64,000 bases of DNA, taken from assembly GCA_964415355.1 (NCBI GenBank), contig CAYPYS010000002.1, forward strand, positions 8,048 through 72,047. The letters run 5' to 3'. The translations under genes were made by a program, and so were the position numbers. The notes beneath the pieces were generated by a model. That model had not been told where the DNA came from and ran no database searches. It worked only from the letters and a program-made list of their open reading frames with translations. Each line of letters opens with the position of its first letter. Within the stretch, counting starts at the first letter, position 1. Source of the DNA: an uncultured Planctomycetia bacterium (GTDB lineage Bacteria; Omnitrophota; Gorgyraeia; Gorgyraeales; Gorgyraeaceae). Positions 9,562-64,000 of the stretch are shown piece after piece.

Positions 9562-9617
9562 TTTGTTATACAATGTTATCATTATTAAAGAGGTTCTTTA
9601 AGAGAGAGGGGGTGGCT

Positions 9618-12086: not shown

Positions 12087-12095
12087 GATTGAGAT

Positions 12096-17206: not shown

Positions 17207-17247
17207 TTCTGGTTGACCGTGGATTTTTTTTAATCTATAATAATAAT

Positions 17248-34451: not shown

Positions 34452-34545
34452 GCTCCGTAAAAGGGCAACTTATCTGAAAGGGTAAGGCGCAAAGCCAGGT
34501 GCCTAAAGCCGCATGAAGCGGACAAGGTCGACCAGCTGCCGTAGA
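34452..34545 (+). promoter_or_regulatory. c-di-GMP-I (GEMM) riboswitch aptamer no. 2
   Basis: GGGCAACUUAUCUGAAAGGGUAAGGCGCAAAGCCAGGUGCCUAAAGCCGC matches the GEMM core; GNRA hairpin. Confidence 0.7.
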
Positions 34546-49916: not shown

Positions 49917-50453
49917 TTAATCTAATATCAGACGAAATGATTTTGTTCTCTCAAAAACAGTATTCCTTAGCTCCCTATGAACTCTTTGCAAAATTGGCAA
50001 TAGTCTAATTCTTCTAAAGTTATCCCAATCGTCAAATGTTCGATAATCATTATTAAAAACCATATTGTTTAATTCAGATTGCAATTGGGCGATTAAATCT
50101 ACTATCTCTGTACCATAATACAATCCCATCAGACCAAGCTGTAAATAGCTTTCTCTCGTAGCTCTATTAAAATTATCCAAAGAGACTTGTCTTCTTTGGA
50201 TAATTTCAGGATTATTGTTAGTTATGCTACCCTGTTGTATCTGTAGATTAATATTGGCAAGTTCCCACATCGAAATCAACATGAGACACAGACTATTCAA
50301 AATGTTTGTAGCTGTGTTATCCTTAGCAATAAGGTATTTAGTCTTTATGTCTCTTTCAAAGTGAAATTTGGCAATTTGTATAGTAGTGTAAGCAACAATA
50401 ATAGGCGATATAAGGCCGAATACTATTGTTTTAATAATTGCATCGGAAAACAT
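49917..50453 (-). CDS. hypothetical protein with N-terminal TM helix
   Basis: no recognisable motifs. Confidence 0.35.
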   Translation of the reverse strand: MFSDAIIKTIVFGLISPIIVAYTTIQIAKFHFERDIKTKYLIAKDNTATNILNSLCLMLISMWELANINLQIQQGSITNNNPEIIQRRQVSLDNFNRATRESYLQLGLMGLYYGTEIVDLIAQLQSELNNMVFNNDYRTFDDWDNFRRIRLLPILQRVHRELRNTVFERTKSFRLILD

Positions 50454-50571
50454 AATATCCCTACCAATCCTTTTTTAAATACTTATAGTGTTTGTAATAC
50501 TACCTAACAACCCCGCCCCTATCAACCTCTTCCTTGCTGTAAGCTGTGCTAAAATAAGACACTGCTATCGA

Positions 50572-51420
50572 TCACGCTTTAATATTACTGACCTCCCGAA
50601 CAAGTCTAATCCCAGTATACATTCTATCTAAGAATTGTCTTTCTAGTTTCATTTTCTCATACCTATTCCTTGGATGATGGGAAAGATTACGTACTCCTTT
50701 GTAAGATATTAAATCATTGCATAGCGTAACATCAAAATACTTCTTTTGCTTCTTTCGAGCACCGCCTTTATTCCTCCAATTAGGAGCCGATAACAGCTTA
50801 ATTTTTGTTTCAAAATTGTAATTTTGCACCTCTCCAATTGTCGGCACTATTTTTTTTGCCCTTGCCGCTGCTTCCGCTAATGTATCCACTAATCCTTCTA
50901 TTAGCTCAGTTATATCTCTAATCGCATCGATAAAGTTACCTTCGTTGAATTTTTCGCAAATCTTAACAATGTCTTTCCTGTATCTGCCCGGACGATGCAT
51001 CTCTGCTTCTCCGATTCTCATATTGCATTGCACGGCATTGCGATGCACGATAACGTTATTATCACACACCAATAAGATGCCTAAGCCATATTTCTTGGCT
51101 AACGTTAAAAAGCTATGAGAAAAAGAAGTTTCCTTATCATCTGTAGAATGAGGAAAGGCCAAAAATATTTCAATTCTTTCTTGGTTGATCAAGCATTCCT
51201 TAACAAAAGTCTCAAAATATTCTTGTAATTGTGGTTTTTCTTGTATTTCTATAACTAATACTGCTGAGCCGCGTTTATGACACACTAACGCTGGTTTGAA
51301 TTGATATTGGGGAGCAAGTGGTTTTTCGAATGAAATTCTTCTATAGGTTTTCTTTTCATAATATTTAATGAGCGTCTTAGCAATAGACCAAAGATTCTCG
51401 CTTAAAAATTGAAATTTCAT
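50572..51420 (-). CDS. hypothetical protein (unknown; co-operonic with ParB-like gene)
   Basis: 3-nt gap to upstream gene. Confidence 0.4.
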   Translation of the reverse strand: MKFQFLSENLWSIAKTLIKYYEKKTYRRISFEKPLAPQYQFKPALVCHKRGSAVLVIEIQEKPQLQEYFETFVKECLINQERIEIFLAFPHSTDDKETSFSHSFLTLAKKYGLGILLVCDNNVIVHRNAVQCNMRIGEAEMHRPGRYRKDIVKICEKFNEGNFIDAIRDITELIEGLVDTLAEAAARAKKIVPTIGEVQNYNFETKIKLLSAPNWRNKGGARKKQKKYFDVTLCNDLISYKGVRNLSHHPRNRYEKMKLERQFLDRMYTGIRLVREVSNIKA

Positions 51421-51422
51421 AA

Positions 51423-52364
51423 TTAAATAATTTTAGTTATAATCTTATATAATTCTTTCAGCTTATTTGCAACTTCTTTGTCTTCTTTGATCTTGCTGTC
51501 CATCCTTTTTAATTTATTAACTAGAGACTCTATTTCTTTTTTTAAATTCCTTTCTTGGTAAGCATCGGCGACAGATTCATTGTAAGCATCTTCTATCCTA
51601 TATTTTGGATTGTTTATTAACTTTTTAATTATAGGGATTGCTTTTTTACTTGGAACGCCTGCTTTCTCAGAACGAGCTATTTTGCTAACATCTCTTAATT
51701 TAACAATGTTAGATATTACACCATCTTTATACTTTTTAAAAAATCTTTGCATTATTTTTTCTTTAGAGTTACTTTCTAAAACTTCGGGCATATATCTTTC
51801 TATTGCCCTGCTTGCTTTCATGGCCTCCAAAAAGAAATCCTCCGAAAATTTTTGTTCTGCCTTGGGTTTTGAAAGCTCTTTTCTTAATAGATTTAAATAT
51901 TTCGTGGGCAAACTTAGTATATCAAAAGCTCTTTTTGCAGTTGCGGGAGTAATGCCTGTTACCGCTGTTATGTCTTTCAAAGAATAAGGCTTATTTTCTT
52001 TTTTTAATAAATTCTCTATTTCTTTAAGTTTCAGTGCTGTTGCAAACAAGTCCCATTGAACACGAACATTATGTATATTGAACATTCTTAAAATATTCTC
52101 TAGCCTAGTTGGCCTTGGTTCAATTATGGTAGGAACGCGAGATAAATTTAACTTCTTAGCACACAACCAGCGCCTTTCCCCATCAAGTAATATATACCTA
52201 TTACTTTTAACATCTTCATAAATAGCTAAAGGAACTCTAATGCCTACTTTTTGTATAGAATTTAATAGGACTTGGAGCTCTTCTTCTCTAAAAATTATAC
52301 GTGGATTATCTGGATTTCTCTTGATTTTGTCTGGATTAATATTGGCTAATCTGGTTCCTGACAT
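51423..52364 (-). CDS. ParB/Srx-fold (ParB-like nuclease domain) protein
   Basis: NPDNPR...LLNSIQKVG...RYILLDGERRWLCAKKL...VP ParB N-terminal signature. Confidence 0.6.
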   Translation of the reverse strand: MSGTRLANINPDKIKRNPDNPRIIFREEELQVLLNSIQKVGIRVPLAIYEDVKSNRYILLDGERRWLCAKKLNLSRVPTIIEPRPTRLENILRMFNIHNVRVQWDLFATALKLKEIENLLKKENKPYSLKDITAVTGITPATAKRAFDILSLPTKYLNLLRKELSKPKAEQKFSEDFFLEAMKASRAIERYMPEVLESNSKEKIMQRFFKKYKDGVISNIVKLRDVSKIARSEKAGVPSKKAIPIIKKLINNPKYRIEDAYNESVADAYQERNLKKEIESLVNKLKRMDSKIKEDKEVANKLKELYKIITKII

Positions 52365-52384
52365 AACCTGTCTCCTTATTTAAT

Positions 52385-53191
52385 TTAAAAATTTGTTATT
52401 ACTAATTCTGGGACTTTTTTTCTCTTCTTTACATTCCCTGCTATCAAGCTTCTTCTTTTAACAAGAGTTAAATTGAAATTCTTATACAACCTTCTTATAT
52501 AATCGTGCTCTGCATTGCTCATGATAATCTTGCATCCTTTTTTATCAAGCTCAACAACAGCATCTTTTAAGCGATTTTGATCTTTTAATGAAAATATTCT
52601 CGAATTATATTCTATAAAACCATTATTTTTATGTGAAGTAGTATAGGGAGGGTCTAAATAAATTAAATCACCTTCCGTAGTATCTTTTACTGCTTTTTCA
52701 AAATCAAGACCTCTTATAGTTACATTTTTTAATATCTTACTAACATTTTTTAATTTCTCTTCGTCGCAAATCGTCGGATTATCATATCGGCCTATAGGAA
52801 CATTAAATCTACCTTTGGGATTAACTCTATACAAACCGTTCCAGCATGTTTTATTAAGGTAGATAAATCGGGCAGCCCTTCTTAAATTATTTGACAATCT
52901 CTGTGAACGAATGTTGTAATAGTATTTCTTCTGGTAGGGCATATTTTTTAAAAATTTTATAACTCCGCCAACATTTCTTTTTATTTGTTGATAGCTATTT
53001 ATTAATTCTGAATTTAAGTCTGATAAATATGCTTCTTTAGGTTCTAATGCAAAAAACAAAGCACCACTACCCAAAAAGGGCTCAAAATAGCGGTTGTAAT
53101 TTTTTGGAATAATTTTTAGTAGTTCAGGTAATAGAGCTTTTTTGCCACCTGCCCATTTCAAAAAAGGCCTAGTAGTAACTTTTTTACTCAT
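52385..53191 (-). CDS. Dam-family (alpha-class) N6-adenine DNA methyltransferase
   Basis: FLKWAGGKK...EPFLGSGA motif I; DPPY motif IV. Confidence 0.85.
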   Translation of the reverse strand: MSKKVTTRPFLKWAGGKKALLPELLKIIPKNYNRYFEPFLGSGALFFALEPKEAYLSDLNSELINSYQQIKRNVGGVIKFLKNMPYQKKYYYNIRSQRLSNNLRRAARFIYLNKTCWNGLYRVNPKGRFNVPIGRYDNPTICDEEKLKNVSKILKNVTIRGLDFEKAVKDTTEGDLIYLDPPYTTSHKNNGFIEYNSRIFSLKDQNRLKDAVVELDKKGCKIIMSNAEHDYIRRLYKNFNLTLVKRRSLIAGNVKKRKKVPELVITNF

Positions 53192-53242
53192 TTTTGTTTT
53201 TTTAGTCTATTTTTAAAATAAATAGAGCTATGGTTCCGTCTG

Positions 53243-53878
53243 TTAAGGCTCTACTCCTAAAATTAACAAAGGTACTGGTGGGTTATTACGGCCATGACGT
53301 AGAATATTGTATACTTCTCCTTCATAATAAGCTACGCCACTTGACATCTGAGACTGCATTTTCTTTGTTGGTAGGATTTCAACACCAAGATTTATGACCC
53401 CGCCAGAATAAAAAAGCAAGTGCTTAACAAATAAGTCAAAAGCAACAAAGGCATATTTGCCAAACTGTACTTCTACGGCAACTTGTTTTTTTACAAAATC
53501 AGTTTGCTTATATGATGCAATTGGGTGCTTAGTACCGTTTTTAATCAGAAATTCTTTCTGTTTTTTGTAAGATAAAGGAACTAATTCTTGCATTATTTTA
53601 TAATCGGTTGTTACATAGTACTGATAGCGACTTTCTTTCCACCCATGAGTTCTAAATTTATTCCTGAATTTTTCATTAAGCGCTATAGGGCTATATAGAG
53701 GCTTGCCTTTCATGGTTTTCTCTTTGCTGATCTTTGTCATTAGCTTTTTAGCGTCTATGCTGTTTATGGTTTTGATAATCTCATTATACAAACTCTTGTG
53801 ATGGACTATTAAATACTCTTCTCCGTTTAGGTGGGAATGTTTCTGTGCTATACGCATACATAGGCTCCTTTCATCCAC
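53243..53878 (-). CDS. putative type II restriction endonuclease (BglII/BamHI-like arrangement EVQFGK..LGVEILP)
   Basis: position between two MTases; E-x-Q / hydrophobic pattern similar to the BamHI E111-E113 region. Confidence 0.4.
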   Translation of the reverse strand: MDERSLCMRIAQKHSHLNGEEYLIVHHKSLYNEIIKTINSIDAKKLMTKISKEKTMKGKPLYSPIALNEKFRNKFRTHGWKESRYQYYVTTDYKIMQELVPLSYKKQKEFLIKNGTKHPIASYKQTDFVKKQVAVEVQFGKYAFVAFDLFVKHLLFYSGGVINLGVEILPTKKMQSQMSSGVAYYEGEVYNILRHGRNNPPVPLLILGVEP

Positions 53879-54852
53879 TCTTTAGGAATTCTGGCCATTT
53901 TGTCATTAGGAGAAGGATTGTGTATGGGTTTATTGATAGGCCGAAGCTTTAGTTTATTGTTTTTTAACATTAATAAGCGTTTTTTGGCGGTTTCTATATA
54001 TTTTTTGTTGCTGTCTATTCCTATAGCATTTCTGTTGTTTTTCATAGCTGCGATTAATGTCGAGCCAACACCTGCATATGGATCTAATACCCAGCTGCCT
54101 TCTTTTGTTAAAGCGAGGATGCACCGTTCTACAAGTTCGACAGGAAATTGACAAGGATGAGTAGTTTTTTCAGGATGGTTTGCTTTAACATTTGGTATGT
54201 TCCAAAAGCCTTTTTCCCAATCTTTGCTTAAAATCTCCCATACATCAGAAGGATTTTTTCCATTAGGATTTCCAGAAAGCTTTCCTCTCTTGGGGCCCTT
54301 GAAATGTTTTTTTCCAGGATATTTTGCAGGTATACGTACATTATCTAAATTGAAAATATAGTCATTTGATTTAGAAAACCATAGGATTGTTTCGTACCTG
54401 CCTGAGAATCTCTTGGATGCATGTAGTCCGTGCCCAAAATGCCAAATTAATCTATTTCTAAGTTTTAAGCCGTGTTTTTTAAATATATTATAATAAAAAA
54501 TATCAAGTGGGAATATCTCTCCTTTATTAACGTAATTGCCTATTTGCCAACAAATACTGCCTCTTTTAGACGTTAACTTAACAAGCTGCTCGATGACTCT
54601 ACCTTGTTTATCTAAATACCGCTCTATTGATTCTTTATTTTCGTATTCCTTCCCTAGGTTATAAGGGGGAGAAGTAATTATTAGATCGAATTTTCCTTTA
54701 TCTAGTTTCTCTAAATTTCTGAGAGTGTCTCCTAGTATAAGCTTGGTCTCTGTATTTTTATACATATTGTTTATTTTAGTTAAATTAGAGCTCGCCATTT
54801 TCTTGGATTCTCCTGCTGAAGCTTGCCCAAAAAGATCATTAATTAATGTCAT
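53848..54852 (-). CDS. beta-class N6-adenine/N4-cytosine DNA methyltransferase
   Basis: SPPY motif IV near N-terminus; DPYAGVGST motif I near C-terminus; start set at second Met after AGGAGG. Confidence 0.75.
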   Translation of the reverse strand: MTLINDLFGQASAGESKKMASSNLTKINNMYKNTETKLILGDTLRNLEKLDKGKFDLIITSPPYNLGKEYENKESIERYLDKQGRVIEQLVKLTSKRGSICWQIGNYVNKGEIFPLDIFYYNIFKKHGLKLRNRLIWHFGHGLHASKRFSGRYETILWFSKSNDYIFNLDNVRIPAKYPGKKHFKGPKRGKLSGNPNGKNPSDVWEILSKDWEKGFWNIPNVKANHPEKTTHPCQFPVELVERCILALTKEGSWVLDPYAGVGSTLIAAMKNNRNAIGIDSNKKYIETAKKRLLMLKNNKLKLRPINKPIHNPSPNDKMARIPKEWMKGAYVCV

Positions 54853-54868
54853 TTTACACCTCCTTAGG

Positions 54869-55030
54869 TTAATAGTCAATAGCGCTGACTATATTATCTA
54901 ATTCTATATAATAGGACATACTATCTCTTGGGTTTCTTTCAAATGTTTTTGGATTTATTGTTATAGGCAGGTAGGTGATTATAAAGATAGCTGTTATTAG
55001 GATGCTTTTAATAAACTTGGTTAGAAACAC
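54869..55030 (-). CDS. 53-aa hydrophobic peptide (VFLTKFIKSILITAIFIITYLPITINPKTF...), paralogue of 47221-47322
   Basis: GTG start after AGGAGG inside hairpin aaaaccttctttac..gtaaaggaggtttt; shares LIT-IIFII-YLPITINP. Confidence 0.3.
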   Translation of the reverse strand: MFLTKFIKSILITAIFIITYLPITINPKTFERNPRDSMSYYIELDNIVSAIDY

Positions 55031-55223: not shown

Positions 55224-55346
55224 TTATGCTTTTTTGATTCTTTCAACAACAGCGGTTCTTTTCTGCCTTCTCGCTCTTGCTACAGGAATAAATCTACCTG
55301 TTATAGCGCTTCTTCCAGCCAGCCTTGTTTTACTTTTCTTGCTCAT
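55224..55346 (-). CDS. 40-aa basic peptide MSKKSKTRLAGRSAITGRFIPVARARRQKRTAVVERIKKA (speculative)
   Basis: RBS gaaaggaggtgg; directly follows terminator cassette copy 3. Confidence 0.25.
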   Translation of the reverse strand: MSKKSKTRLAGRSAITGRFIPVARARRQKRTAVVERIKKA

Positions 55347-55797: not shown

Positions 55798-56160
55798 CTA
55801 CAATATACTAAACATAACCACTACCCCTAAAACCACTGTAAAAACCCCATATACCCGCCAGGCGATGAGAGGGCGGCTGGTGAAGTAGTTGAATGTGGAT
55901 ATTAGGGTGTTCCTGGGGGATATGAGTATGAATAGGGCTTTTATTAGGGATATTATGCCTAAGAGCTTTATGAAGAGCTGGAGGCGTGATGCAGGGTGAG
56001 CCCAGAGGAATAATATGCCTGCTAGTAAAGGCAGTATGAATAGGGGTTTTGTTGGCTTTATTAGCTTGGTATAAAAGGTTTTTGATTTTAAGGGGAATAT
56101 GAGAAATACTAGGCCTGCGAGGAGCCAGAAGACGGAAATTACTAATAGAAATATTTTCAT
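55798..56160 (-). CDS. small polytopic membrane protein (4 TM helices)
   Basis: hydrophobicity pattern. Confidence 0.45.
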   Translation of the reverse strand: MKIFLLVISVFWLLAGLVFLIFPLKSKTFYTKLIKPTKPLFILPLLAGILFLWAHPASRLQLFIKLLGIISLIKALFILISPRNTLISTFNYFTSRPLIAWRVYGVFTVVLGVVVMFSIL

Positions 56161-56168
56161 ATGTCACT

Positions 56169-56804
56169 TTACTCTTTTGGTTCAGTCAAAGTTTCTATTT
56201 CTTCATGGACTGTCTCTGCAGCTTCGGTTGCGACTTCTGCTGGCTCGGGTATGCTTTTTGCTGCAGGTCTCGTTCCCCCAGAGATTTCATGTAAAATAAT
56301 TTTCTTGGTTGCTTCATACTCTGTTTCCGTGATCAATTTCTTATCATATAAAGACTGTAATTGAACTAATTTATCTTCAAGCGTCGCATCTTTTTTTACT
56401 GCTCTTGAAGCGGAAGTCGCTGTAGCATTAGTTAATCTCTTCATCTCTACATGGACGCTTTCCGGGACAAGTTTCCATTGAGCGCCTGTCATAGCATCTA
56501 CTCCCCATCCTATCAAACCACCAAGAAGAATGTTTCCAGCAACAGCACCGCTTATAACATGCATCAATAACACATGTTCTGTTTCATAACCTTCTTTGGT
56601 AAATATAAGGTTATGATCTGTTTTTCTTCGCAGTTTTAAAGTCGTGGGTGTCTTATGGGAACCTGTTCCATCTACGCTAACTGTAGCACCTGGAGGATTA
56701 GTAGAAACCGGGACTCTTTGGTTTGGACCACAAGTAATTGTAGCACAACCAGACATGGTGAGAATAAAAACCATCAAGACTGCACAGATGAAGATTTTCT
56801 GCAT
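56169..56804 (-). CDS. lipoprotein with PEGA-like and C-terminal SHOCT domains
   Basis: lipobox MSGC; LVQLQSLYDKKLITETEYEATKKIIL SHOCT-like; start trimmed to MQKIF after RBS. Confidence 0.5.
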   Translation of the reverse strand: MQKIFICAVLMVFILTMSGCATITCGPNQRVPVSTNPPGATVSVDGTGSHKTPTTLKLRRKTDHNLIFTKEGYETEHVLLMHVISGAVAGNILLGGLIGWGVDAMTGAQWKLVPESVHVEMKRLTNATATSASRAVKKDATLEDKLVQLQSLYDKKLITETEYEATKKIILHEISGGTRPAAKSIPEPAEVATEAAETVHEEIETLTEPKE

Positions 56805-56948
56805 ATAGTGTTCCTTTCTTTTTATCTTCATTATGATATAACAACAAAAAGCAACCCCGACATTATGCCAAGATTGCTTTATATTATAGAAATATTGACT
56901 TCTTTCCCACTCCCACCCCATTGTGGTTATTGTATATATGATACTACG

Positions 56949-56977
56949 TTAGGCTTATTGAGTCAAGGTGAGGCGTG
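56949..56977 (-). promoter_or_regulatory. minus-strand promoter TTGACT-17-TATCAT within a conserved 45-bp module (copy 1)
   Basis: near-identical module at 60950-60998. Confidence 0.5.
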
Positions 56978-57042
56978 TTATGTACTAAATGTGGATAGCG
57001 GAAGACAGTGAGTAAAGGTTAGGTTAACTGTGTAGATAGAAT

Positions 57043-59277
57043 TTATTTGGCATATAAATGTTTTCTAACCAGGTCAAAATCATCTAATGCATCATGCGGC
57101 ATTGCAGCGCCATATCTTTCTATAATAGCTATATACTCCTCCCTTGTATCTCCTTGGACATTATCAGCTATTATAAAAACCGTTCTTTCAGGGATTTCAA
57201 TGCGTTTTCTTATTTCATCTTCTTGAGTCTTGAAATATACAATAATGACCGGAACTTCGTGCGGAGAAATATTACTAATTCCATGTCTAATTTTTTCTAA
57301 TCCAGCTTCATCCGCTAATATGTTACCTTCAAATAAGCTTGCTCCATTAAATAAGACAGGAGTTGCTTCTATTAAAGAAGAAGCGTGTTTATCATATTGC
57401 AGCTCAATATCCTTTTGAACAAAAGCAAGAACCATGGCAGCAATAAGCATTGGCGTGACTTCTTCTTTCGCTACAAGTTCTTGCATTAAAGGCAATTCAG
57501 ATGGACTAAGACCGATATCGTTAAGAACCTCTTGCGGTAATTCAGATAGGTCTAAATCAAAACCTGCAAAGTCTGCTGGTGAAAATTCAAATAAGTTTAG
57601 ACCAAAGCCAGCCCTGTACGCATGCCCTCCGCCCCATCTTCCTTTAGGTCCATTTATACATAAGAAGCTGACATCGATTTCATCAAAATCAGATCTCCGC
57701 GCCAAAAGTACAGCCATGCTATTATCTTCTGCTATATAATAATGTACCAATACTCTGTTGCCAAACTGACCATTATCATTAAGAAGGCCGAATACTATCT
57801 TGTGCACGAGAAGGGTAACGTTACCTTTTTCTGCCGGAATTTTATAAAAATAAACCTTCCTGTTAGAAGCAAGGAATTCTTTTATAGAGCCATCAACCTC
57901 GTTCATGATACCTCTGGACCACTCAAAGAAATCATCTCCGAATCTCCTCTGCATCGTTTCTTCAAGCCCTCTCCTTAAATCTTCAAAGGAACCGCTAGAA
58001 GAGATAACCTGAATGATTTCTTTCATTGCTCCGCGCCTTTTCGCGAGTTCTTCCGGTTTCCAATTAAATAAATAAGTCCCGCATAGATTAAGTAGCCCTG
58101 AAACATGCCTAGCTTCTTCTGAATCAAGATCTTTGTTTAGACTTGGGAAATTTGAAGAAGAATAATCGGCGTAAAGAGACAGTTGTTTTAAGAAATGATA
58201 CCAAGGATCACCTTCTGTCTTCATCAGGTCTGCTTCAAATGCACCTGAAGCATAGCTATCAGGATCCGCTACTTCTCCGATAATAAGGTGGACATTTATA
58301 AGAAATATTTTATCTCTTTCGTATTTATCAATACAATTGTTAAATGTTCCGATGTTATTAGCAGCTATAAACTCCTTGCTCCATTTATGGTGATCCTGCA
58401 CAATGATAGTATCGAAACCAAAAGAATCGCTTAAACTGCCTCTTTTATATCTATCAGGCTCGGGAAGAAAAACATCCCCTACAAAAAGAGCCCTTTTACC
58501 CTTTAATTCTGAAAAATCAATCATCCTTTCATCTTCTTTATAGTGTGACAAAGGCAAAAGACATATATAAAGCTTCCCGTCGTGCCTCGCATCATTAGGG
58601 TCAGTGATGAATTCTACGTCTCTACCTTTGCCTCCTGCTTCATGAACCAGTCTGCGGTATACTGCTGCAGAAAAAGTAAAAGAATCTCCATCTATCGGTA
58701 TTTTTTGATTGTCATGGGGCGATATAACGACAATAGAATACTCATCAATAATTTTCTCTATCAAGTTGTCCAATAGCTGCTTTATCTTATTAAGATTACT
58801 AGCTTTATTTTCCCATTCATGCGCCAGATACTCTTCTGTTTCTATGACACCCTTGTCCCTATTCTGAATCCTGCGAAACTCACTTTCTTCTTTAGGCCAA
58901 AATAATCCATCTTTATATATTGCATAAGTATTTGTTTCAGCGTGATGTATCCAGGCATTTCCATGGACATCCTCTATCACTTGAAGATCTTCATCTTCTA
59001 TAAACTTAGATAACTCAGGGTCTTTTCTTAAACTTTCAAGAAACTGCTGAGGCGAAATGTTTGTTTTATTCTTCAGTATTTTTTGATAAGCGGCTGATAG
59101 TGATGCCCAGAAATATCTAGAGATTGTATTGCTATCACTATTATTAAAATCAAGCTCTTTTCTAAGATGGGTTTTATTGGATAACTCTATACCATAGACT
59201 GCAGCGTTAAAGAAAAGTACTCCAGCTGCAATTATTGATATAATTTTATAAGTTAAGGGTTTACTAAAGTTTTTCAT
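57043..59277 (-). CDS. large exported/membrane-anchored DHH-DHHA1 family phosphoesterase with about 250-aa N-terminal extension
   Basis: DGD, DHH (IVQDHHKW) and GGGH (GRWGGGHAYRAG) motifs; N-terminal TM/signal. Confidence 0.5.
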   Translation of the reverse strand: MKNFSKPLTYKIISIIAAGVLFFNAAVYGIELSNKTHLRKELDFNNSDSNTISRYFWASLSAAYQKILKNKTNISPQQFLESLRKDPELSKFIEDEDLQVIEDVHGNAWIHHAETNTYAIYKDGLFWPKEESEFRRIQNRDKGVIETEEYLAHEWENKASNLNKIKQLLDNLIEKIIDEYSIVVISPHDNQKIPIDGDSFTFSAAVYRRLVHEAGGKGRDVEFITDPNDARHDGKLYICLLPLSHYKEDERMIDFSELKGKRALFVGDVFLPEPDRYKRGSLSDSFGFDTIIVQDHHKWSKEFIAANNIGTFNNCIDKYERDKIFLINVHLIIGEVADPDSYASGAFEADLMKTEGDPWYHFLKQLSLYADYSSSNFPSLNKDLDSEEARHVSGLLNLCGTYLFNWKPEELAKRRGAMKEIIQVISSSGSFEDLRRGLEETMQRRFGDDFFEWSRGIMNEVDGSIKEFLASNRKVYFYKIPAEKGNVTLLVHKIVFGLLNDNGQFGNRVLVHYYIAEDNSMAVLLARRSDFDEIDVSFLCINGPKGRWGGGHAYRAGFGLNLFEFSPADFAGFDLDLSELPQEVLNDIGLSPSELPLMQELVAKEEVTPMLIAAMVLAFVQKDIELQYDKHASSLIEATPVLFNGASLFEGNILADEAGLEKIRHGISNISPHEVPVIIVYFKTQEDEIRKRIEIPERTVFIIADNVQGDTREEYIAIIERYGAAMPHDALDDFDLVRKHLYAK

Positions 59278-59423
59278 AATGTAGGTAAAAAAATAGCCTC
59301 TCCTTTTTGACTATAAAGGAGAAAGGCTTGCCCTGGTTAATACTTAATCTTATCTTATTATATCATATATGGCTTATATCTCCAAGCCATCTCTTCTTAA
59401 ATTTAAGCTTTATCGGATCCGAT

Positions 59424-60779
59424 TTAATGCCGTTTGAAAGAAAATTTGGGCGTTACCTTTACCAGCTTGCCAGCTATTTCCAACACCGGATATGCAAGAA
59501 AGTTAATCGGACCTGAATCAGGGCCCGGCTCGATCGTAAGGTCCCTGCCGCGGCTGAGTTCGAAACGGTTTGCAGGATGATGTCCGAAGTAGTAGGTCGA
59601 AAGGCTCGAATACTTATCGGCCTCGGAAATATCGATAGGGCGCCACTTTTCTTCGGCATAGAACTCCACCCAACAGTGATAACCGTCTATTCCTCCATTA
59701 TTGCGTTCCGAAGGGATTGCCGCGCCTATAGCAAAGCGGGCTGGGATGCCAACAGCCCTTGCCAAAGATATAAAGTAAGCGTGAAAGTCAGTGCAGTTTC
59801 CTGTGCGGACATTGCATGCATAAACAGCGTCCCCCTTACCCCAGCCAGAGCCGTATTTCATGTAGCGCATGCGGTCGATGACGTGATCGTAAATGGCACG
59901 GGCTCGCACAAGGTTGCCCTTCTTGCCTTTGATAATTGTCTTGGCTATGTCTTTAAAATTTTCATCAATTGGGACGAGGCGGTCTGGCTCAAGACTTTTT
60001 TCCCGATCATCGGACTGCGGACTGTATGCGGATTTTTCAATGCGTTCTACCCGATAATGGATATCGATAGTCTTTGCGCTGTCTTCCGGCCCGAGCTCAA
60101 AGAAAAAAATCTTATTACCGTATTCGGTTTCCTCTAGTATGCGGTAATTTTTAGGTGAATCGATGCTGTCTATATTGACTTTCTGGAATGCGTCTGTTGC
60201 CGGAAAAGGAAGCCACATGCGGGCGATATCGCTTATCTCAGGAAGTTTTACTCTATATGTAAACTCAAACGCGTCTTGGCCCGTGATCACCCCGAGCAAT
60301 TGCGGTGCGGCGCCTTCTATGGGGACTCGTTTCCATGTGCCTCTCCAGTTTTGCTTCCACGCGTAGAACGGGATGCCGTTGAGCTTATGGAGGGTCGTCT
60401 CGGTTACAGTCATGGCGCCGGGGTCACCGGAAAGAAAAAAATCCATGTCATATACATCGCCGGATGTGTCTACCATGTCCACGCAGGCAAAATGGCGGCG
60501 CGGACCAAGGTTCGCCAGGTATTCAGTATGAACGCGTACCAGTTTAAACGAATGTTCCTTGTCGCTCGAGGAGAATTTAAAATAGCCTTCTCCTTGCACG
60601 GTCTGCTCTTCGATGTGTTTCTCTATGCCGGTTTGTATGTCCGATGTTACTACATTGGGCGTAGTTTTGCTTGCTTCTACCGGACTACACCCTTCAAGAG
60701 CAGCGCATAGTACGATTGCCACTGCTATTGTTATATGTCGAATGACAGCATATATTTCTAGCATATATTTTTGTAACAT
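59424..60779 (-). CDS. transglutaminase-like cysteine-protease-domain lipoprotein
   Basis: GNCTDFHAYFISLARAVGIPAR plus downstream His/Asp; lipobox LEGC. Confidence 0.65.
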   Translation of the reverse strand: MLQKYMLEIYAVIRHITIAVAIVLCAALEGCSPVEASKTTPNVVTSDIQTGIEKHIEEQTVQGEGYFKFSSSDKEHSFKLVRVHTEYLANLGPRRHFACVDMVDTSGDVYDMDFFLSGDPGAMTVTETTLHKLNGIPFYAWKQNWRGTWKRVPIEGAAPQLLGVITGQDAFEFTYRVKLPEISDIARMWLPFPATDAFQKVNIDSIDSPKNYRILEETEYGNKIFFFELGPEDSAKTIDIHYRVERIEKSAYSPQSDDREKSLEPDRLVPIDENFKDIAKTIIKGKKGNLVRARAIYDHVIDRMRYMKYGSGWGKGDAVYACNVRTGNCTDFHAYFISLARAVGIPARFAIGAAIPSERNNGGIDGYHCWVEFYAEEKWRPIDISEADKYSSLSTYYFGHHPANRFELSRGRDLTIEPGPDSGPINFLAYPVLEIAGKLVKVTPKFSFKRH

Positions 60780-60802
60780 GTATATGACAGTGAAATCAAT
60801 CT

Positions 60803-60928
60803 TTATTCAGGGTGGTCTGACTTTGGATGATCATGCGAAGGATGTTCTGCCCCAGAGTGTTTTTCGCAGCCTACAAGAGACAAGCTGATAACTGTGCACA
60901 TGAGCGCAAGCAACAATAATTTTTTCAT
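60803..60928 (-). CDS. 41-aa His-rich lipopeptide MKKLLLLALMCTVISLSLVGCEKHSGAEHPSHDHPKSDHPE
   Basis: strong RBS gagggggtag; lipobox LVGC; not in ORF track. Confidence 0.4.
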   Translation of the reverse strand: MKKLLLLALMCTVISLSLVGCEKHSGAEHPSHDHPKSDHPE

Positions 60929-60958
60929 GTCTACCCCCTCTCTGTGTTGATCATATAT

Positions 60959-60987
60959 ATGATACTACTTTGGGTTTATCAAGTCAA
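60959..60987 (-). promoter_or_regulatory. minus-strand promoter TTGACT-17-TATCAT (conserved 45-bp module, copy 2)
   Basis: 24-nt leader to the lipopeptide start. Confidence 0.5.
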
Positions 60988-61008
60988 GATGGGGAAAGCT
61001 CGGGGGAT

Positions 61009-64000
61009 CTATAGCGAGGTATCGGTAGGTTTAATATTTTCGATATGTCCAAATGGCTCAAATGTCATTGGGTTGACTAAAATATCTTCTACAAGAAATT
61101 TTTCTCCAGAATCAGTCACCTCGATCCTGTAGCTTCTAATCGGGTTTCTCAAGTTTGGATCTTCTGATCCCTCAGAAAAACCAAAGGTCTCGAGCAGCCA
61201 ATCCGAGGCTTTGATACCGGGCAGTAAGTTTCGTCTTATCATCTCTATTATAGTCGAAAGATTAAAATATCCTCTATTGCCTGCATAATCTGCCGGGCCT
61301 TTCAGCGCAACAGGCCTGCCGTCGTCTTCCCATGTTAGCCCTTCTACTGTAAATTCGCCTTGCACGTCAGGATTTCTATAGCCTATTTTTATCTCACTTT
61401 TGTCATCTGTTCTTACGATTCTTATAGGATAAGCCTCTCTGTCATTCCTTGTTTTATTATCTTCCGATCTTTGCCCTTCAAAAGAAATAATGCTAACGTC
61501 TCTTTCAGTTCTGAATGAAAACCTGCCTGTGCCTATAGAAATCTGAAATAAACGCTTATCGCCCGGGGCTGCGATGCCAGCTTCTATGCTTCTTTCCAAT
61601 GACTCATCGAAGTCTCTAAAAACACTTGATTCATGAAGATCGTAACCAGGCATCTCATCGCCATTAATAGATATGGTCCTGGTAATTTTTAATTTCGAGT
61701 CTTCTTCTAAAGGAATTATCTTTCCCTCTCTCCATTCATATCCAACTATATTGTCAGGATTAGCTATATCTTCGAACACAAGAAAACGAGCCTCATTTTC
61801 CCTGTCCCGGTAAATCCTTATCCTTCCTGGATGGGTCTCGTGCCACGATGGTAAATAAAGACGCCCGTGAAAATTTATGTATCTTTCTTTCTGCTCGTAA
61901 TCAACGCCAAACGTCTTATCCCTAAGATGTTGCGCTACAGCTAGCAATCTCTCTTTGCCCTGATCAAGTGGTATTGAAAATACAGTATCATAAAAATCAG
62001 AAAAAACAGGCATTAAAGTAAGCGTCAATGATGTCTTTCCTTCAATATCTGTCATATCTTCTGTAACCTTTTTTCCTGAAGGTCGAATATAAGTAAGTCT
62101 TAATATACCTTTTTCTTTGATGCACTCCAAGGTCAGCCTGTTTTTAGGATTTTTTATGTCCACAATATCTATTTTTGCCTCGTTTGAAATAGGTGTTTTT
62201 TGGGCAGATATTCGCACCCTTCCGTCTAGCTGACGCGGCAAGCGTATCCTTGCCCCGGCAAAAAGAAAATTCCTTCCAATCGTGATATTAGCCTTTCCGG
62301 AAAACTTTCCTATGCCATAATCAGAAGGATCAAGGTCGTTCGCTTGAAAATGTTTATATAATAATGCTACTGGATTACGGCTTATTCTCAAGCTTGGCAT
62401 AGCTTCTGCTGTTTCTCGTATATTAGGCGGTCTTTTTAATTGTTTTCTCAGTCTAGAAGCAATTCTTTTTATTTCGGAATCGAGCGCTTTTCTCGAATCC
62501 GGACCCCTTACTACTTTTACCAATATTCGACGGCCCTGTTCAAATATTGCCTCGTCAATATTCTTGACCTCGCCATCGACTATTTCAAAATATTCACCGC
62601 CTGCCCGCACATAAAAATTGTTATTATCCCCTATCCTTATCCGCTCCTGCAAATGATGCTCGGATTCATTGAATTCTTGCTTAATCTTTCTGTTTATAGT
62701 ATCAGCCTTAATGCCCGTAGCTTGAAGTTCCTGTATTCTTCGTATTACTATCAATCCCTTGGTCTTTGTTTTTATAGTAAGGATACCATCTTCTACTTCG
62801 AAGGAAATATTTATTAAGGCAGGATATTCTGTTAGAACTTTTTCTTTGCTGATACTTTTAATTCCATCTTCGTTTTTGTTAAAATCCAGGCAAGCTTGCA
62901 TGTACTCTTTGAATAAAAAAGGAGGCATGCTCTCGAAGTTCACTTCTCTAAAACCTTCTTTAGAGCTATCCCATAGGCCATAAAGAAGGCGTAATAAATA
63001 ATACATTTGCTCAAGATCAAGTTCTCGAAGATATTCAAATCCATTATCGAATCTGATATTTGACAGGAATTTATCAAATCTATCGTTCCAATCTAGGTCT
63101 AACTCGTCGTCGATAAAATTAAACGGGTTGTCACGATGGTAAGGGTTAGAATTCGCATGCTTTAGAAAGACTCCATAGAGCCTATAAAAATCTGTCCCAT
63201 TTTTAGTAATGTCATCGAGTATTTCTTTTCTTCTGCTTCCGGGAAGAGACGAATGGGCATTGAGAATCAAATCAACCACAGCTGCTAATCGAAGCGTGCT
63301 CATATATGCCTGTGACTCACCGATAATTATATTTTCTCCCGCAAGTTCTCTTTGCAAAACCGTTGCCTTGTTTATCCCGTTCAAGCAACTCATTGCCAAA
63401 GTAATTTCATCAGTTGTTAAGCTATCGGTTTCCGTTTGTAATTCAGAATGTAAATCTGCCAGGTCGGAAAGCACTCTTATTGGACCATTGTTATTTGGAT
63501 CGAAATATCTGCTTCCAGGGTATGGAATAGTTCTAAAAACAGAGGCCATATAAGAACCTGATTTCATCAAAAAATGTGCAGTCTTGATTATTGAACCAAA
63601 GCTCTGTCCGGGCAAGCCAACCTGTAAATATGAGACAACCACTATCCGGAGTTCTTCGGCAATTGCAATATTTTCAAGTACTTTGTCCATAGCAATTTTA
63701 GAGTCTTTGACGGCATTCATTAGTCCTTCATCTCCGCTTTCTATTCCCAAATATATCGTTGTAAGCCCAGAGTCCTTCATTGCTTCAAGCATTTCTCTGT
63801 CAAGCAAATCCGCTCTTGTGGTGCATGACCAGTAAAAATTATCACCTTCTTTCTCGGCTCGTAATTTATATTCTTTCATTATTGCTATGATTTGCATTGC
63901 TCTTTCTCTGACAAGGCTCCATGTTTCATCTCTGAATGAAAAAGCCCGGACACCCGTGCTATACAATTCCTCTATTTCTTGTCGCATAAGCTCAACGTCG
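61009..64000 (-). CDS. giant radical-SAM-domain protein, 5'-truncated by window end; C-terminal half of rSAM core followed by about 850-aa extension of unknown function
   Basis: ...WSCTTRADLLDREMLEAMKDSGLTTIYLGIESGDEGLMNAVKDS...GLPGQSF matches rSAM strands 4-6; ORF open to window edge. Confidence 0.5.
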   Translation of the reverse strand, partial: DVELMRQEIEELYSTGVRAFSFRDETWSLVRERAMQIIAIMKEYKLRAEKEGDNFYWSCTTRADLLDREMLEAMKDSGLTTIYLGIESGDEGLMNAVKDSKIAMDKVLENIAIAEELRIVVVSYLQVGLPGQSFGSIIKTAHFLMKSGSYMASVFRTIPYPGSRYFDPNNNGPIRVLSDLADLHSELQTETDSLTTDEITLAMSCLNGINKATVLQRELAGENIIIGESQAYMSTLRLAAVVDLILNAHSSLPGSRRKEILDDITKNGTDFYRLYGVFLKHANSNPYHRDNPFNFIDDELDLDWNDRFDKFLSNIRFDNGFEYLRELDLEQMYYLLRLLYGLWDSSKEGFREVNFESMPPFLFKEYMQACLDFNKNEDGIKSISKEKVLTEYPALINISFEVEDGILTIKTKTKGLIVIRRIQELQATGIKADTINRKIKQEFNESEHHLQERIRIGDNNNFYVRAGGEYFEIVDGEVKNIDEAIFEQGRRILVKVVRGPDSRKALDSEIKRIASRLRKQLKRPPNIRETAEAMPSLRISRNPVALLYKHFQANDLDPSDYGIGKFSGKANITIGRNFLFAGARIRLPRQLDGRVRISAQKTPISNEAKIDIVDIKNPKNRLTLECIKEKGILRLTYIRPSGKKVTEDMTDIEGKTSLTLTLMPVFSDFYDTVFSIPLDQGKERLLAVAQHLRDKTFGVDYEQKERYINFHGRLYLPSWHETHPGRIRIYRDRENEARFLVFEDIANPDNIVGYEWREGKIIPLEEDSKLKITRTISINGDEMPGYDLHESSVFRDFDESLERSIEAGIAAPGDKRLFQISIGTGRFSFRTERDVSIISFEGQRSEDNKTRNDREAYPIRIVRTDDKSEIKIGYRNPDVQGEFTVEGLTWEDDGRPVALKGPADYAGNRGYFNLSTIIEMIRRNLLPGIKASDWLLETFGFSEGSEDPNLRNPIRSYRIEVTDSGEKFLVEDILVNPMTFEPFGHIENIKPTDTSL

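What the first reader, a model, noticed from the sequence alone, without database searches (positions are those of the whole stretch)
55798..64000. Minus-strand cluster: giant radical-SAM protein, His-rich lipopeptide, transglutaminase-like lipoprotein, 744-aa DHH phosphoesterase, PEGA/SHOCT lipoprotein
- An rSAM-domain protein with an about 850-aa C-terminal extension of unknown function, truncated by the window, is followed by an unannotated 41-aa His-rich peptide with a lipobox (…EHPSHDHPKSDHPE).
- Next come a transglutaminase-like Cys-protease lipoprotein and a large exported DHH/DHHA1 phosphoesterase.
- An rSAM enzyme plus a small peptide plus a transglutaminase-like protease is reminiscent of RiPP maturation loci. 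Alternatively this is an envelope metal-handling module.
- None of the large proteins matches a family I can name beyond domain level.
Basis: partly seen in the sequence, partly recalled or inferred. Interest (0 to 1): 0.6.

Follow-up and report, generated by a model that had tools for sequence, protein, structure and literature searches.

The report
Four unrelated envelope units, not RiPP
The genes are all real, but they are not one peptide-maturation cluster: two Omnitrophota-specific leader-tagged modular enzymes flank a small His-Pro-repeat lipoprotein and transglutaminase-like enzyme pair that is conserved across many phyla and appears undescribed.

Summary
All six minus-strand ORFs exist at the stated coordinates. 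The radical-SAM gene, completed from an identical metagenome contig, encodes 1398 aa: leader, B12-binding domain, rSAM core, bridge and a 580-aa module of no known fold. The 744-aa protein has a DHH/DHHA1 fold and motifs. Across 86 loci with the transglutaminase-like gene, only the small peptide travels with it. The rSAM, DHH, PEGA and 120-aa genes do not.

Two findings emerge:
- **Conserved gene pair.** The 41-aa peptide belongs to a family of signal- or lipobox-bearing (E/D)HP-repeat proteins. One lies upstream of the transglutaminase-like gene in 32 loci, convergent downstream in 19, and fused to its mature N-terminus in 10 (loci of 34–71% GC). No such repeats occur elsewhere in 690 kb. A YHS-domain variant points to metal binding.
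- **Shared leader.** The rSAM and DHH proteins carry an N-terminal leader found in other proteins from Omnitrophota and unlabelled metagenomes (…SNKTxLR[V/K]…). Many of these end in R-T-x-[L/I]. The leader is attached to shuffled cytoplasm-type enzyme domains.

Function is inferred, not shown. Interest is moderate.

The parts
63568..64000 (-). C-terminal part of the radical-SAM core of the 1398-aa protein. The leader, B12-binding domain and CPFRCLYC motif lie beyond the window edge.
   Evidence: Pfam Radical_SAM E 2e-13 on the window fragment. Full gene L001:5575-9771 has B12-binding E 9e-13 and Radical_SAM E 1e-22. Closest solved relative is AprD4, 6fd2, E 8e-19. All NCBIfam equivalogs score far below cut-off.
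62761..63567 (-). Bridge of about 270 aa between the rSAM core and the module (aa 547-815).
   Evidence: No family hit. Only partly covered by any homologue: the module hits cover 59-75% of the 798-aa query, which began at about aa 601.
61009..62760 (-). 580-aa conserved module (aa 816-1398) ending in the tail …PTDTSL, plus the stop codon.
60959..60987 (-). Sigma-70-like promoter match (TTGACT-17-TATCAT) between the rSAM stop and the peptide start.
   Evidence: This is a consensus match only. Promoter-like sites in the region were 30 against 22 ± 5 expected.
60803..60928 (-). 41-aa lipoprotein with (E/D)HP repeats: MKKLLLLALMCTVISLSLVGC|EKHSGAEHPSHDHPKSDHPE.
   Evidence: ORF. Shine-Dalgarno sequence. 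Called by JGI and on record from NCBI. 41-aa orthologue in L098. Family found next to, or fused with, the transglutaminase-like gene in 61 of 86 loci; none elsewhere in 690 kb.
59424..60779 (-). 451-aa exported transglutaminase-like (papain-fold Cys-His-Asp) protein. An unknown N-terminal domain covers about aa 40-270. The core spans 59631-59951.
   Evidence: Pfam Transglut_core E 2e-23. 6079 homologues at E ≤0.001 among the 8000 candidates scored; the best 120 listed are 65-100% identical and carry Omnitrophota, Marinimicrobia and Planctomycetota labels. Mean column identity is 73% in an 18-sequence alignment, with C329/H368/D383 invariant. Closest solved structure is 3isr, core only.
59297..59324 (-). 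Terminator-like hairpin with a T-run after the transglutaminase-like gene.
   Evidence: pattern match only.
58843..59277 (-). Leader plus leader-proximal domain of the 744-aa protein (aa 1-145): MKNFSKPLTYKIISIIAAGVLFFNAAVYGIELSNKTHLRKELDFNN…
   Evidence: 65% identical to the N-terminus of P0014, an 896-aa Omnitrophota protein with an unrelated body. About 20 further proteins of 109-1834 aa share it.
57550..58839 (-). Divergent DHH/DHHA1 phosphoesterase domain (aa 147-576).
   Evidence: Family alignment A3: the DHH triplet and two glycines of GGGH are invariant, and the PxDxD and GD motifs are present. Pfam DHH reaches only E 0.055, in 2 of 8 members. AF2 pLDDT 77.6, pTM 0.83. Foldseek top 10 are RecJ, GAN, PAP phosphatase, GdpP and NrnA at E 5e-7 to 7e-5, prob 1.0. 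The same domain occurs inside mosaic proteins of about 4000 aa with HD_4, deaminase or MBL domains.
57046..57402 (-). 120-aa C-terminal domain of the 744-aa protein (aa 626-744), ending …RKHLYAK.
   Evidence: Shared with the C-termini of P0146 (1222 aa), P0149 (1522 aa) and P0160 (432 aa), E 3e-25 to 2e-6.
56169..56804 (-). PEGA-domain lipoprotein with a SHOCT-like C-terminal segment. The likely start is M40 (start codon at 56804, lipobox LTMSGC); the longest ORF reaches 56921.
   Evidence: PEGA E 1.3e-7, above threshold; SHOCT 22.8 bits, below its gathering score of 27. AAAGGAA lies upstream of M40. Promoter-like site at 56966-56938.
55798..56160 (-). 120-aa multi-pass membrane protein, 8 bp downstream of the PEGA gene.
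   Evidence: ORF. No family hit. Called in the public contigs.

Best explanation
The 8.2-kb stretch is not one system. It is four adjacent units of envelope-directed proteins in an Omnitrophota genome.

**(1) and (3): the 1398-aa B12-radical-SAM protein and the 744-aa DHH/DHHA1 phosphoesterase.**
- Both belong to a class of modular proteins whose labelled members are all Omnitrophota. Members share a nearly identical Sec-type N-terminal leader: M-x-[K/N]-[F/I]-[K/R]-K, a hydrophobic stretch of about 18 residues, [A/V]-Y-[G/S], then …L-S-N-K-T-x-L-R-[V/K]-[P/x]-[L/M].
- Many also share an R-T-x-[L/I] carboxy-terminal tail.
- These proteins recombine conserved non-catalytic modules with interchangeable cytoplasm-type enzyme domains. 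The modules are the 580-aa module, the 100-aa leader-proximal domain and the 120-aa C-terminal domain. The enzyme domains include rSAM, SAM-methyltransferase, HATPase, Nudix, DHH and HExxH.
- Inferred mechanism: the leader sends them across, or anchors them in, the inner membrane. The conserved modules and tail act in sorting, docking or delivery, and the enzyme domain is the payload. They look like small relatives of the giant mosaic proteins of this phylum.

**(2): the 41-aa (E/D)HP-repeat lipoprotein and the transglutaminase-like Cys-His-Asp enzyme.**
- These form an autonomous two-gene unit conserved across phyla.
- Inferred mechanism: the membrane-tethered, disordered His/Glu repeats bind a divalent metal (Cu or Zn type) and serve the periplasmic enzyme as an accessory that supplies, buffers or regulates.

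**(4): a PEGA lipoprotein with a small membrane protein.**

**Shown versus inferred.** Shown: gene content, domain identities, leader and tail conservation, and the gene-pair linkage including fusions. Inferred: export, metal binding and every biochemical role.
For: **Composite nature**
- Neighbours of the module family are gyrB/gyrA…hisG and other leader-bearing genes.
- Apart from the peptide, neighbours of the transglutaminase-like gene differ in every lineage.
- Each unit is preceded by a promoter-like site, and a terminator-like hairpin follows the transglutaminase-like gene.

**Leader class**
- 39 of 42 collected proteins have the L-R motif at residue ~22-48 after the same leader. 20 of 42 end in [S/T]-x-[L/I/V], whatever their last domain is.
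- Payload domains come from Pfam.
- The 744-aa protein resolves into three separately conserved modules.
- The DHH fold is supported.
- Published descriptions of Omnitrophota long proteins report mosaics of methyltransferase, HATPase, HAD, Nudix and radical-SAM domains, 94% with a signal peptide or TM helix.

**Gene pair**
- 32 upstream, 19 convergent and 10 fused among 86 loci. 47 repeat segments lie within 800 bp of the gene and 0 elsewhere. Locus GC ranges from 34 to 71%.
- About 40 of 48 peptides have a lipobox.
- Metal hints: one variant is a YHS-domain lipoprotein with a DHPKSDHPK tail. Another carries Cys/His-rich repeats. A designed (E-h-P)3 cyclic peptide, with D-His, was built to bind metals through His and Glu and crystallised with Co2+ (PMC9648172).
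Against: - No experiment or expression data. Promoter and terminator matches are pattern hits only, and 30 promoter-like sites were found against 22 expected.
- Export of a B12/[4Fe-4S] enzyme through Sec is biochemically awkward. The leader could instead be an uncleaved anchor or mean something else. No signal-peptide predictor was available, so topology rests on the positive-inside rule applied by eye.
- The two leader-bearing genes flank the peptide/transglutaminase pair here. A local functional link in this one lineage therefore cannot be excluded.
- Metal binding by the EHP repeats is an analogy plus one YHS fusion. The transglutaminase fold needs no metal.
- The module model is only of moderate confidence (pLDDT 71, pTM 0.48), so 'no known fold' is provisional. 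The AlphaFold database library could not be searched.
Confidence: 0.7

Rival explanations
1. **RiPP-like locus.** The giant rSAM enzyme modifies the His-rich peptide, the transglutaminase-like protease trims it, and the remaining genes export it or confer immunity.
For: The gene order rSAM-peptide-protease is seen here. The peptide's H-P-S triplets weakly resemble His-Xaa-Ser repeat precursors: NF038309 HxsA3 scored E 0.0036 on a homologous peptide. A small rSAM-SPASM gene lies two genes upstream of the pair in L015, and a B12-rSAM gene lies nearby in L098.
Against: - The peptide/transglutaminase pair occurs in 61 of 86 loci. A CxxxCxxC screen of 84 of them flagged rSAM candidates in only 8, of visibly different kinds.
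- The module family never neighbours a transglutaminase-like gene.
- No SPASM or RRE domain is present.
- The peptide carries a lipoprotein signal, so it is exported and lipidated rather than modified in the cytoplasm.
- In 10 loci the repeats are simply the N-terminal tail of the enzyme.
- The HxsA3 score of 17 bits is far below its cut-off of 65.
Confidence: 0.04
2. **Secreted effectors.** The leader-bearing modular proteins, including the rSAM and DHH proteins, are delivered into prey or host cells. The leader, 580-aa module and R-T-x-[L/I] tail are trafficking elements. The enzymes work only once inside a foreign cytoplasm that supplies SAM, reductant, B12 and nucleotides. This is a sharper version of the payload idea in the main explanation.
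For: - A conserved N-terminal part with swappable enzyme bodies is the architecture of polymorphic effector systems.
- The payloads need cytoplasmic cofactors, yet the leader predicts export (note).
- Omnitrophota are reported as predatory or parasitic, with secretion-system loci next to giant mosaic genes.
- Leader-bearing genes cluster side by side.
Against: - No secretion-system genes lie in the 64-kb window where it was annotated.
- No immunity-like genes were identified.
- No rSAM effector is known to me (own knowledge).
- The 2026 preprint reads many such proteins as membrane-anchored with cytoplasm-facing domains.
Confidence: 0.2
3. **Substrate or pro-region.** The (E/D)HP-repeat lipoprotein is not a metal binder. 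It is the substrate, pro-region or inhibitor of the transglutaminase-like enzyme. The repeats would be cleaved into short peptides, cross-linked to another envelope component, or would occupy the active site until a pH shift protonates the histidines.
For: - There is tight genetic linkage and N-terminal fusion directly before the enzyme's first conserved domain. This is the position of pro-peptides in papain-like proteases (the comparison is from general knowledge).
- The only conserved element is the tripeptide, with variable spacers, as expected of a recognition site.
- 16 of 51 peptides end in Lys.
Against: - The C-terminal residue is not conserved (K 16, N 10, E 9 of 51), which argues against an Lpp-like cross-link.
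- The YHS-domain and Cys/His-rich variants point to metals.
- No Gln, the transglutaminase acyl donor, is conserved in the repeats.
Confidence: 0.25
4. **One metal-handling operon.** The whole six-gene stretch is a single envelope metal-handling operon.
For: All six products have signal peptides, lipoboxes or TM segments. The peptide is His-rich. DHH enzymes use Mn2+ or Co2+ (general knowledge).
Against: There is no co-conservation beyond the peptide/transglutaminase pair. No transporter, P-type ATPase, RND or metal-sensor gene is present. Separate promoter-like sites and a terminator-like hairpin divide the units.
Confidence: 0.06

Closest known systems
Giant / very long mosaic proteins of Omnitrophota (bioRxiv 10.1101/2023.11.21.568195; bioRxiv 10.64898/2026.06.07.730766)
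   Same: Same phylum. Same repertoire of cytoplasm-type enzyme domains (methyltransferase, HATPase_c, Nudix, HAD, Radical_SAM) strung together behind a signal peptide or TM segment. The DHH-like domain of the 744-aa protein also occurs inside proteins of 2695-4091 aa.
   Different: These proteins are 400-1800 aa, not above 10,000 aa. The passages of those papers retrieved by term search mention neither the shared leader (…SNKTxLR[V/K]…), the R-T-x-[L/I] tail, nor the 580-aa module. The papers were not read in full.
DHH/DHHA1 phosphoesterases (RecJ, NrnA, GdpP catalytic domain, archaeal PAP phosphatase, GAN/Cdc45)
   Same: Two-domain fold and the motifs DxD, D, DHH and GGGH.
   Different: Sequence is too divergent for Pfam: best E 0.055 in 2 of 8 relatives and none for this protein. 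It is embedded between a leader domain and a 120-aa C-terminal domain and is predicted to be exported. The substrate is unknown.
Class B (B12-binding) radical-SAM enzymes; nearest solved is AprD4 (6fd2)
   Same: B12-binding domain plus rSAM core with CxxxCxxC.
   Different: It reaches no equivalog cut-off: 64 bits against 500 for AprD4. It carries an N-terminal Sec-like leader and about 850 aa of C-terminal extension, including the module.
Transglutaminase-like putative cysteine proteases (Pfam PF01841; structure 3isr)
   Same: Core domain with the Cys-His-Asp triad.
   Different: This is a distinct ~445-aa exported family with an unknown 230-aa N-terminal domain. It shows unusually high cross-phylum conservation (65-80% identity) and is linked to an (E/D)HP-repeat lipoprotein in most loci examined. 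No curated NCBIfam model exists.
His-rich metal-binding tails and small periplasmic metal binders, e.g. YHS/TRASH-domain proteins and the GHHPH repeats of histidine-rich glycoprotein (general knowledge)
   Same: Short repeated His-containing units in a disordered, exported polypeptide. One family member carries a YHS domain.
   Different: The repeat unit (E/D)-H-P-[S/T/A/K] matches no curated family. Metal binding is untested.
HxsABCD His-Xaa-Ser repeat / radical-SAM peptide system (NCBIfam NF038309 and relatives)
   Same: Short His-containing repeats; an rSAM gene happens to be adjacent here.
   Different: 17 bits against a cut-off of 65. The peptide is a lipoprotein, and no HxsB/C-type SPASM maturases are present.
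Polymorphic toxin / effector systems (conserved N-terminal trafficking part, variable C-terminal enzyme)
   Same: Modular logic: constant leader and modules with a swappable enzyme domain, and genes clustered side by side.
   Different: No immunity genes or dedicated secretion genes were identified nearby. The payloads are not recognised toxin domains.

Membership tests
RiPP biosynthetic gene cluster (rSAM maturase + precursor + protease) | Maturase and precursor peptide are co-conserved across genomes. | tested here: not met
   The peptide travels with the transglutaminase-like gene in 61 of 86 loci. No relative of this rSAM gene appeared in 84 loci, and a CxxxCxxC screen flagged candidates of different kinds in 8. 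Module-family loci lack both the peptide and the transglutaminase-like gene.
RiPP biosynthetic gene cluster (rSAM maturase + precursor + protease) | The rSAM maturase carries a SPASM/twitch or RRE peptide-recognition domain. | tested here: not met
   Only B12-binding and Radical_SAM domains were found. The RiPP rSAM ApyD model scored 34 bits against a cut-off of 750.
RiPP biosynthetic gene cluster (rSAM maturase + precursor + protease) | The precursor is a cytoplasmic leader-core peptide. | tested here: not met
   The peptide begins with a lipoprotein signal (LVGC lipobox), as do about 40 of 48 relatives.
His-Xaa-Ser repeat protein HxsA | Score above the NF038309 cut-off (65 bits). | tested here: not met
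   Best score 17.1 bits, on a homologue. There was no hit on the window peptide.
DHH/DHHA1 phosphoesterase superfamily | Conserved motifs DxD, D, DHH (DHH domain) and GGGH (DHHA1). | tested here: met
   IPIDGDSF, FVGD, QDHHKW (D295-H297) and WGGGHAYRAG (549-556) are present. The DHH triplet and two glycines of GGGH are invariant across 8 family members.
DHH/DHHA1 phosphoesterase superfamily | Two-domain DHH fold. | tested here: met
   AF2 pTM 0.83. The Foldseek top 10 are all DHH-family structures, at E 5e-7 to 7e-5. The DHHA1 part of the model has low confidence (pLDDT <50 from residue 380).
DHH/DHHA1 phosphoesterase superfamily | Pfam PF01368/PF02272 gathering score. | tested here: not met
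   No hit for this protein. The best hit among relatives is E 0.055.
Transglutaminase-like superfamily (PF01841) | Pfam gathering score and the Cys-His-Asp triad. | tested here: met
   83 bits against a cut-off of 23. C329, H368 and D383 are invariant in 18 sequences.
Class B B12-binding radical-SAM enzymes | N-terminal B12-binding domain plus an rSAM core with CxxxCxxC. | tested here: met
   PF02310 E 9e-13; PF04055 E 1e-22; CPFRCLYC.
Class B B12-binding radical-SAM enzymes | Assignment to a characterised equivalog (AprD4, HpnJ, PhpK, BchE and others). | tested here: not met
   All scores are 13-64 bits against cut-offs of 360-775.
Bacterial lipoproteins | Lipobox [LVI][ASTVI][GAS]C at the end of a signal peptide. 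| tested here: met
   41-aa peptide: LVGC. PEGA protein: MSGC. The transglutaminase-like protein has an atypical LEGC, and most of its homologues lack the Cys. Lipidation itself cannot be tested here.
PEGA / SHOCT domain proteins | Pfam gathering scores. | tested here: inconclusive
   PEGA scores 31.8 bits against 20.8 (met). SHOCT scores 22.8 against 27 (not met).
Omnitrophota giant mosaic proteins | Phylum, SP/TM N-terminus and an array of unrelated enzyme domains. 'Giant' size is above 10,000 aa in the 2026 preprint. | tested here: inconclusive
   Phylum, leader and domain repertoire fit. Size does not (744 and 1398 aa).
Known anti-phage defence systems (PADLOC) | A match to a defence-system protein model. 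| tested here: not met
   The only hit is a generic rSAM-core match to candidate PDC-M51A (31.6 bits). The other four proteins gave none.

The most novel reading that the evidence does not exclude
The shared N-terminal leader (…[A/V]-Y-[G/S]…L-S-N-K-T-x-L-R-[V/K]-[P/x]-[L/M]) and the R-T-x-[L/I]-COOH tail would be the two ends of an undescribed protein-sorting code so far seen only with Omnitrophota labels. This code would route cofactor-dependent, cytoplasm-type enzymes (B12-radical-SAM, SAM-methyltransferase, HATPase, Nudix, DHH) out of the producer's cytoplasm. Possible destinations are a prey or host cell, or a PVC-type internal compartment. The 580-aa module of unknown fold would act as the docking or delivery device. 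This would make the window's protein the first candidate for an exported radical-SAM enzyme.
Probability: 0.15. Interest if true: 0.85.

Novelty: new variant of a known kind. Interest (0 to 1): 0.5.

Why it matters
**(E/D)HP-repeat lipoprotein / transglutaminase-like pair**
- The enzyme family is large: about 6000 homologues passed E ≤0.001. The listed members are 65–80% identical between phyla, so it is under strong constraint. No curated family matches it, and two text searches of the held paper library found nothing relevant.
- The partner peptide and the fusion give a concrete handle for experiments on metal binding, proteolysis or cross-linking.

**Leader, tail and modules**
- They offer a sequence-level rule for finding one class of Omnitrophota proteins and ordering it.
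- They sharpen an open puzzle for this phylum: why enzymes that need SAM, ATP, B12 or Fe-S clusters sit behind export signals. The answer bears on whether these bacteria inject enzymes into prey.

**For genome scanning**
- An rSAM gene next to a small peptide and a protease can arise by juxtaposition alone.

Tried and rejected
- **RiPP cluster.** Rejected on co-conservation, domain content and the peptide's lipoprotein signal.
- **HxsA-type peptide.** Rejected: 17 bits against a cut-off of 65.
- **Anti-phage defence system.** Considered because a restriction-modification island is adjacent. PADLOC gave only a generic rSAM hit.
- **Phage or tail-fibre origin of the 580-aa module.** No relatives in IMG/VR. 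No structural match in BFVD, TM ≤0.12.
- **Internal repeats in the module.** It looked repetitive by eye, but self-BLAST found none.
- **Sequence-only detection of DHH.** Failed with Pfam, NCBIfam, and PDB phmmer and profile searches. Only motifs and fold succeeded.
- **Braun-lipoprotein-like cross-linking through a C-terminal Lys.** Weak: Lys is terminal in only 16 of 51 peptides.
- **A third conserved gene beside the pair.** Glycosyltransferase, desaturase-like and PdxJ neighbours recur only in one ~46-49%-identity clade (soil-derived, judging by eye), which is lineage synteny.
- **Secretion genes in the window.** None were seen in the annotated parts. One look-up, for window 17188-18705, found no record.
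- **Literature.** Searches for EHP repeats or a His-rich partner of transglutaminase-like proteins found nothing relevant.

Full report
**Observation.**
- The rSAM frame remains open to base 64000.
- An exact-protein look-up recovered the same sequence on JGI metagenome contigs (L001-L006). The proteins are also on record from an NCBI contig of 224,657 bp.
- L001 supplies the missing 5' end.

**The rSAM protein.** The complete protein is 1398 aa. It contains, in order:
- a hydrophobic leader (MLNFRKLLNLKPIALLVVIVLIFTSNAYSLESNKTTLRVPL…);
- a B12-binding domain;
- an rSAM core with CPFRCLYC;
- about 850 further residues.

It reaches no curated equivalog. The best score is AprD4, 64 bits against a cut-off of 500, and the nearest solved structure is 6fd2.

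**Taxon.** The nearest labelled relatives of three different genes are 'Candidatus Omnitrophota'. The only two hits to the C-terminal module among 185,579 species genomes are Omnitrophota MAGs.

**The C-terminal extension.**
- A search with residues 601-1398 found just 12 proteins, all 58-68% identical over the last ~580 residues.
- This module stands alone in proteins of ~635 aa. Elsewhere it is joined to a class I SAM-methyltransferase, an HATPase_c domain, an LMW-phosphatase-like region or unknown domains. It can sit at either end of the protein.
- An AlphaFold model built from 13 sequences is of moderate quality (pLDDT 71, pTM 0.48). It shows a mixed α/β multi-domain body.

**The 744-aa protein.**
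- The word-indexed search found almost nothing.
- The exhaustive HMMER search split it into three independently conserved parts:
  - residues 1-145 are shared with about 20 proteins of 109-1834 aa;
  - residues 147-576 are shared with about 10 proteins, three of them 2695-4091 aa long;
  - residues 626-744 are shared with three proteins that end the same way (…KKHLYAK).
- The central part fits the DHH-family motifs (PxDxD, GD, DHH, GGGH), with the DHH triplet and two glycines of GGGH invariant.
- Pfam barely sees it, at E 0.055 in 2 of 8 members.
- Its model (pTM 0.83) retrieves only RecJ, GAN, PAP phosphatase, GdpP and NrnA as its ten best PDB matches.
- In the giant relatives the domain sits beside HD_4, cytidine-deaminase or metallo-β-lactamase domains.

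**A shared leader and tail.**
- The rSAM protein and the 744-aa protein have near-identical N-termini.
- I tabulated 42 proteins: the module family, the leader-domain family, their neighbours in other MAGs, and the two window proteins.
- 39 of them have the same leader. It runs M-x-[K/N]-[F/I]-[K/R]-K, about 18 hydrophobic residues, [A/V]-Y-[G/S], …L-S-N-K-T-x-, then L-R at position ~22-48 (mostly 33-40).
- The leader comes in two flavours: LRVP[L/M/I/V] and LRKxLDFN.
- 20 of the 42 end in [S/T]-x-[L/I/V], mostly R-T-x-[L/I], whichever domain is last.
- Such genes lie side by side in other MAGs.
- In the 64-kb window only the 744-aa protein matches the leader pattern, because the rSAM N-terminus lies outside the window.
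- Two preprints describe Omnitrophota long proteins as mosaics of methyltransferase, HATPase, HAD, Nudix and radical-SAM domains. They report that 94% carry a signal peptide or TM helix.
- The window's two proteins look like small members of that world. The leader, tail and module did not appear in the passages of those papers that my term searches returned.

**The peptide and the transglutaminase-like protein.**
- The 451-aa protein belongs to a large family. 6079 of the 8000 candidates scored passed E ≤0.001, and the best 120 listed are 65-100% identical. Labels include Omnitrophota, Marinimicrobia and Planctomycetota.
- The Cys-His-Asp triad is invariant.
- Its neighbours differ from lineage to lineage, with one exception.
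- In 86 loci (80 from a metagenome scan), a small signal-bearing ORF with repeated (E/D)-H-P-[S/T/A/K] is arranged in one of three ways:
  - immediately upstream on the same strand in 32 loci;
  - immediately downstream and convergent in 19 loci;
  - replaced in 10 loci by (E/D)HP motifs fused to the mature N-terminus of the enzyme itself.
- 15 of the remaining 25 loci lack enough flank.
- Segments with three or more such motifs number 47 within 800 bp of the gene and none elsewhere in 690 kb read in six frames. The loci range from 34 to 71% GC.
- About 40 of 48 peptides have a lipobox.
- The window peptide has a strong ribosome-binding site and a 41-aa orthologue in another Omnitrophota MAG.
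- The peptide is therefore a real gene. It is functionally tied to the transglutaminase-like protein, not to the rSAM enzyme.

**What the repeats do is inferred.**
- In one locus the partner is a lipoprotein with a YHS metal-binding domain and a DHPKSDHPK tail. In another it carries two Cys/His-rich repeats.
- This favours metal binding, but a substrate or pro-region role is not excluded.

**The cluster as a whole.**
- Clustering all ORFs from 84 loci shows no recurrence of the rSAM, DHH, PEGA or 120-aa genes near the pair.
- A CxxxCxxC screen flagged rSAM-like candidates in 8 loci, of visibly different kinds.
- Each unit is preceded by a promoter-like site, and a terminator-like hairpin follows the transglutaminase-like gene. 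These are pattern matches only.
- PADLOC finds no defence system.
- The best reading is four juxtaposed units of envelope-directed proteins.
The metal-handling alternative survives only for the two-gene pair.

**Limits.**
- No signal-peptide predictor, expression data or AlphaFold-database fold search was available.
- The census of the leader class rests on 42 proteins reached through two query proteins.

Noticed in passing
window 2491-2577 (+), 34454-34543 (+), 18722-18859 (-): Three c-di-GMP-I riboswitch aptamers above the Rfam gathering score (73, 62.5 and 54 bits) within 64 kb. A PAS-GGDEF-HD protein (39145-41307) and a PilZ protein lie nearby. This genome appears to make heavy use of c-di-GMP signalling.
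   Followed up: no
window ~50500-54900 (-): A low-GC island (32-34% against ~42%) lies directly downstream of the finding. It holds a BglII-like endonuclease with an N4/N6 methyltransferase, a Dam-like D12 methyltransferase, a ParB_N-like 313-aa protein and an unknown 282-aa protein. It looks like an inserted restriction-modification element.
   Followed up: partly
window ~49400-50500: Gene orientation switches from the + strand (1-49.4 kb) to the - strand (49.9-64 kb). GC skew changes sign at the same place, and cumulative skew peaks near 50 kb. This convergent point could be a replication terminus or simply the island boundary.
   Followed up: no
L003:2921-5155 (equals window 57043-59277): In one metagenome sample the 744-aa gene is called as two ORFs of 124 and 573 aa (P0140, P0013). 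This suggests a frameshift or stop variant in the population, or an assembly error.
   Followed up: no
L008:13132-17916; L010:4710-7121 and 9080-12568; L011:1601-5860: In other Omnitrophota MAGs, two or three leader- and tail-bearing genes of unrelated bodies sit next to each other between gyrB/gyrA and hisG.
   Followed up: partly
L015:4288-5094: A short rSAM-SPASM gene (268 aa as called; a longer ORF of 329 aa starts at 4105) and a 137-aa membrane protein lie just upstream of the EHP-peptide/transglutaminase pair in a related genome from the same sample series. The arrangement is not conserved elsewhere.
   Followed up: partly
L033:5577-5828; L021:500-790: Partner ORFs of the transglutaminase-like gene combine Cys/His-rich segments with an EHP tail. 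In L033 the segment HxCxxxCKDGxHVC…GEKGHxC occurs twice. They have no Pfam match.
   Followed up: partly
window 55224-55346 (-): A 40-aa, very basic ORF (MSKKSKTRLAGRSAITGRFIPVARARRQKRTAVVERIKKA) is called as a gene on the JGI contig. It is followed by a terminator-like hairpin at 55065-55032. Its function is unknown.
   Followed up: no
window 59424-60779 and alignment A2: The transglutaminase-like family is unusually conserved for an exported protein of unknown function. Mean column identity is 73% in 18 sequences labelled Omnitrophota, Marinimicrobia and Planctomycetota. This suggests either strong constraint or recent horizontal spread.
   Followed up: partly
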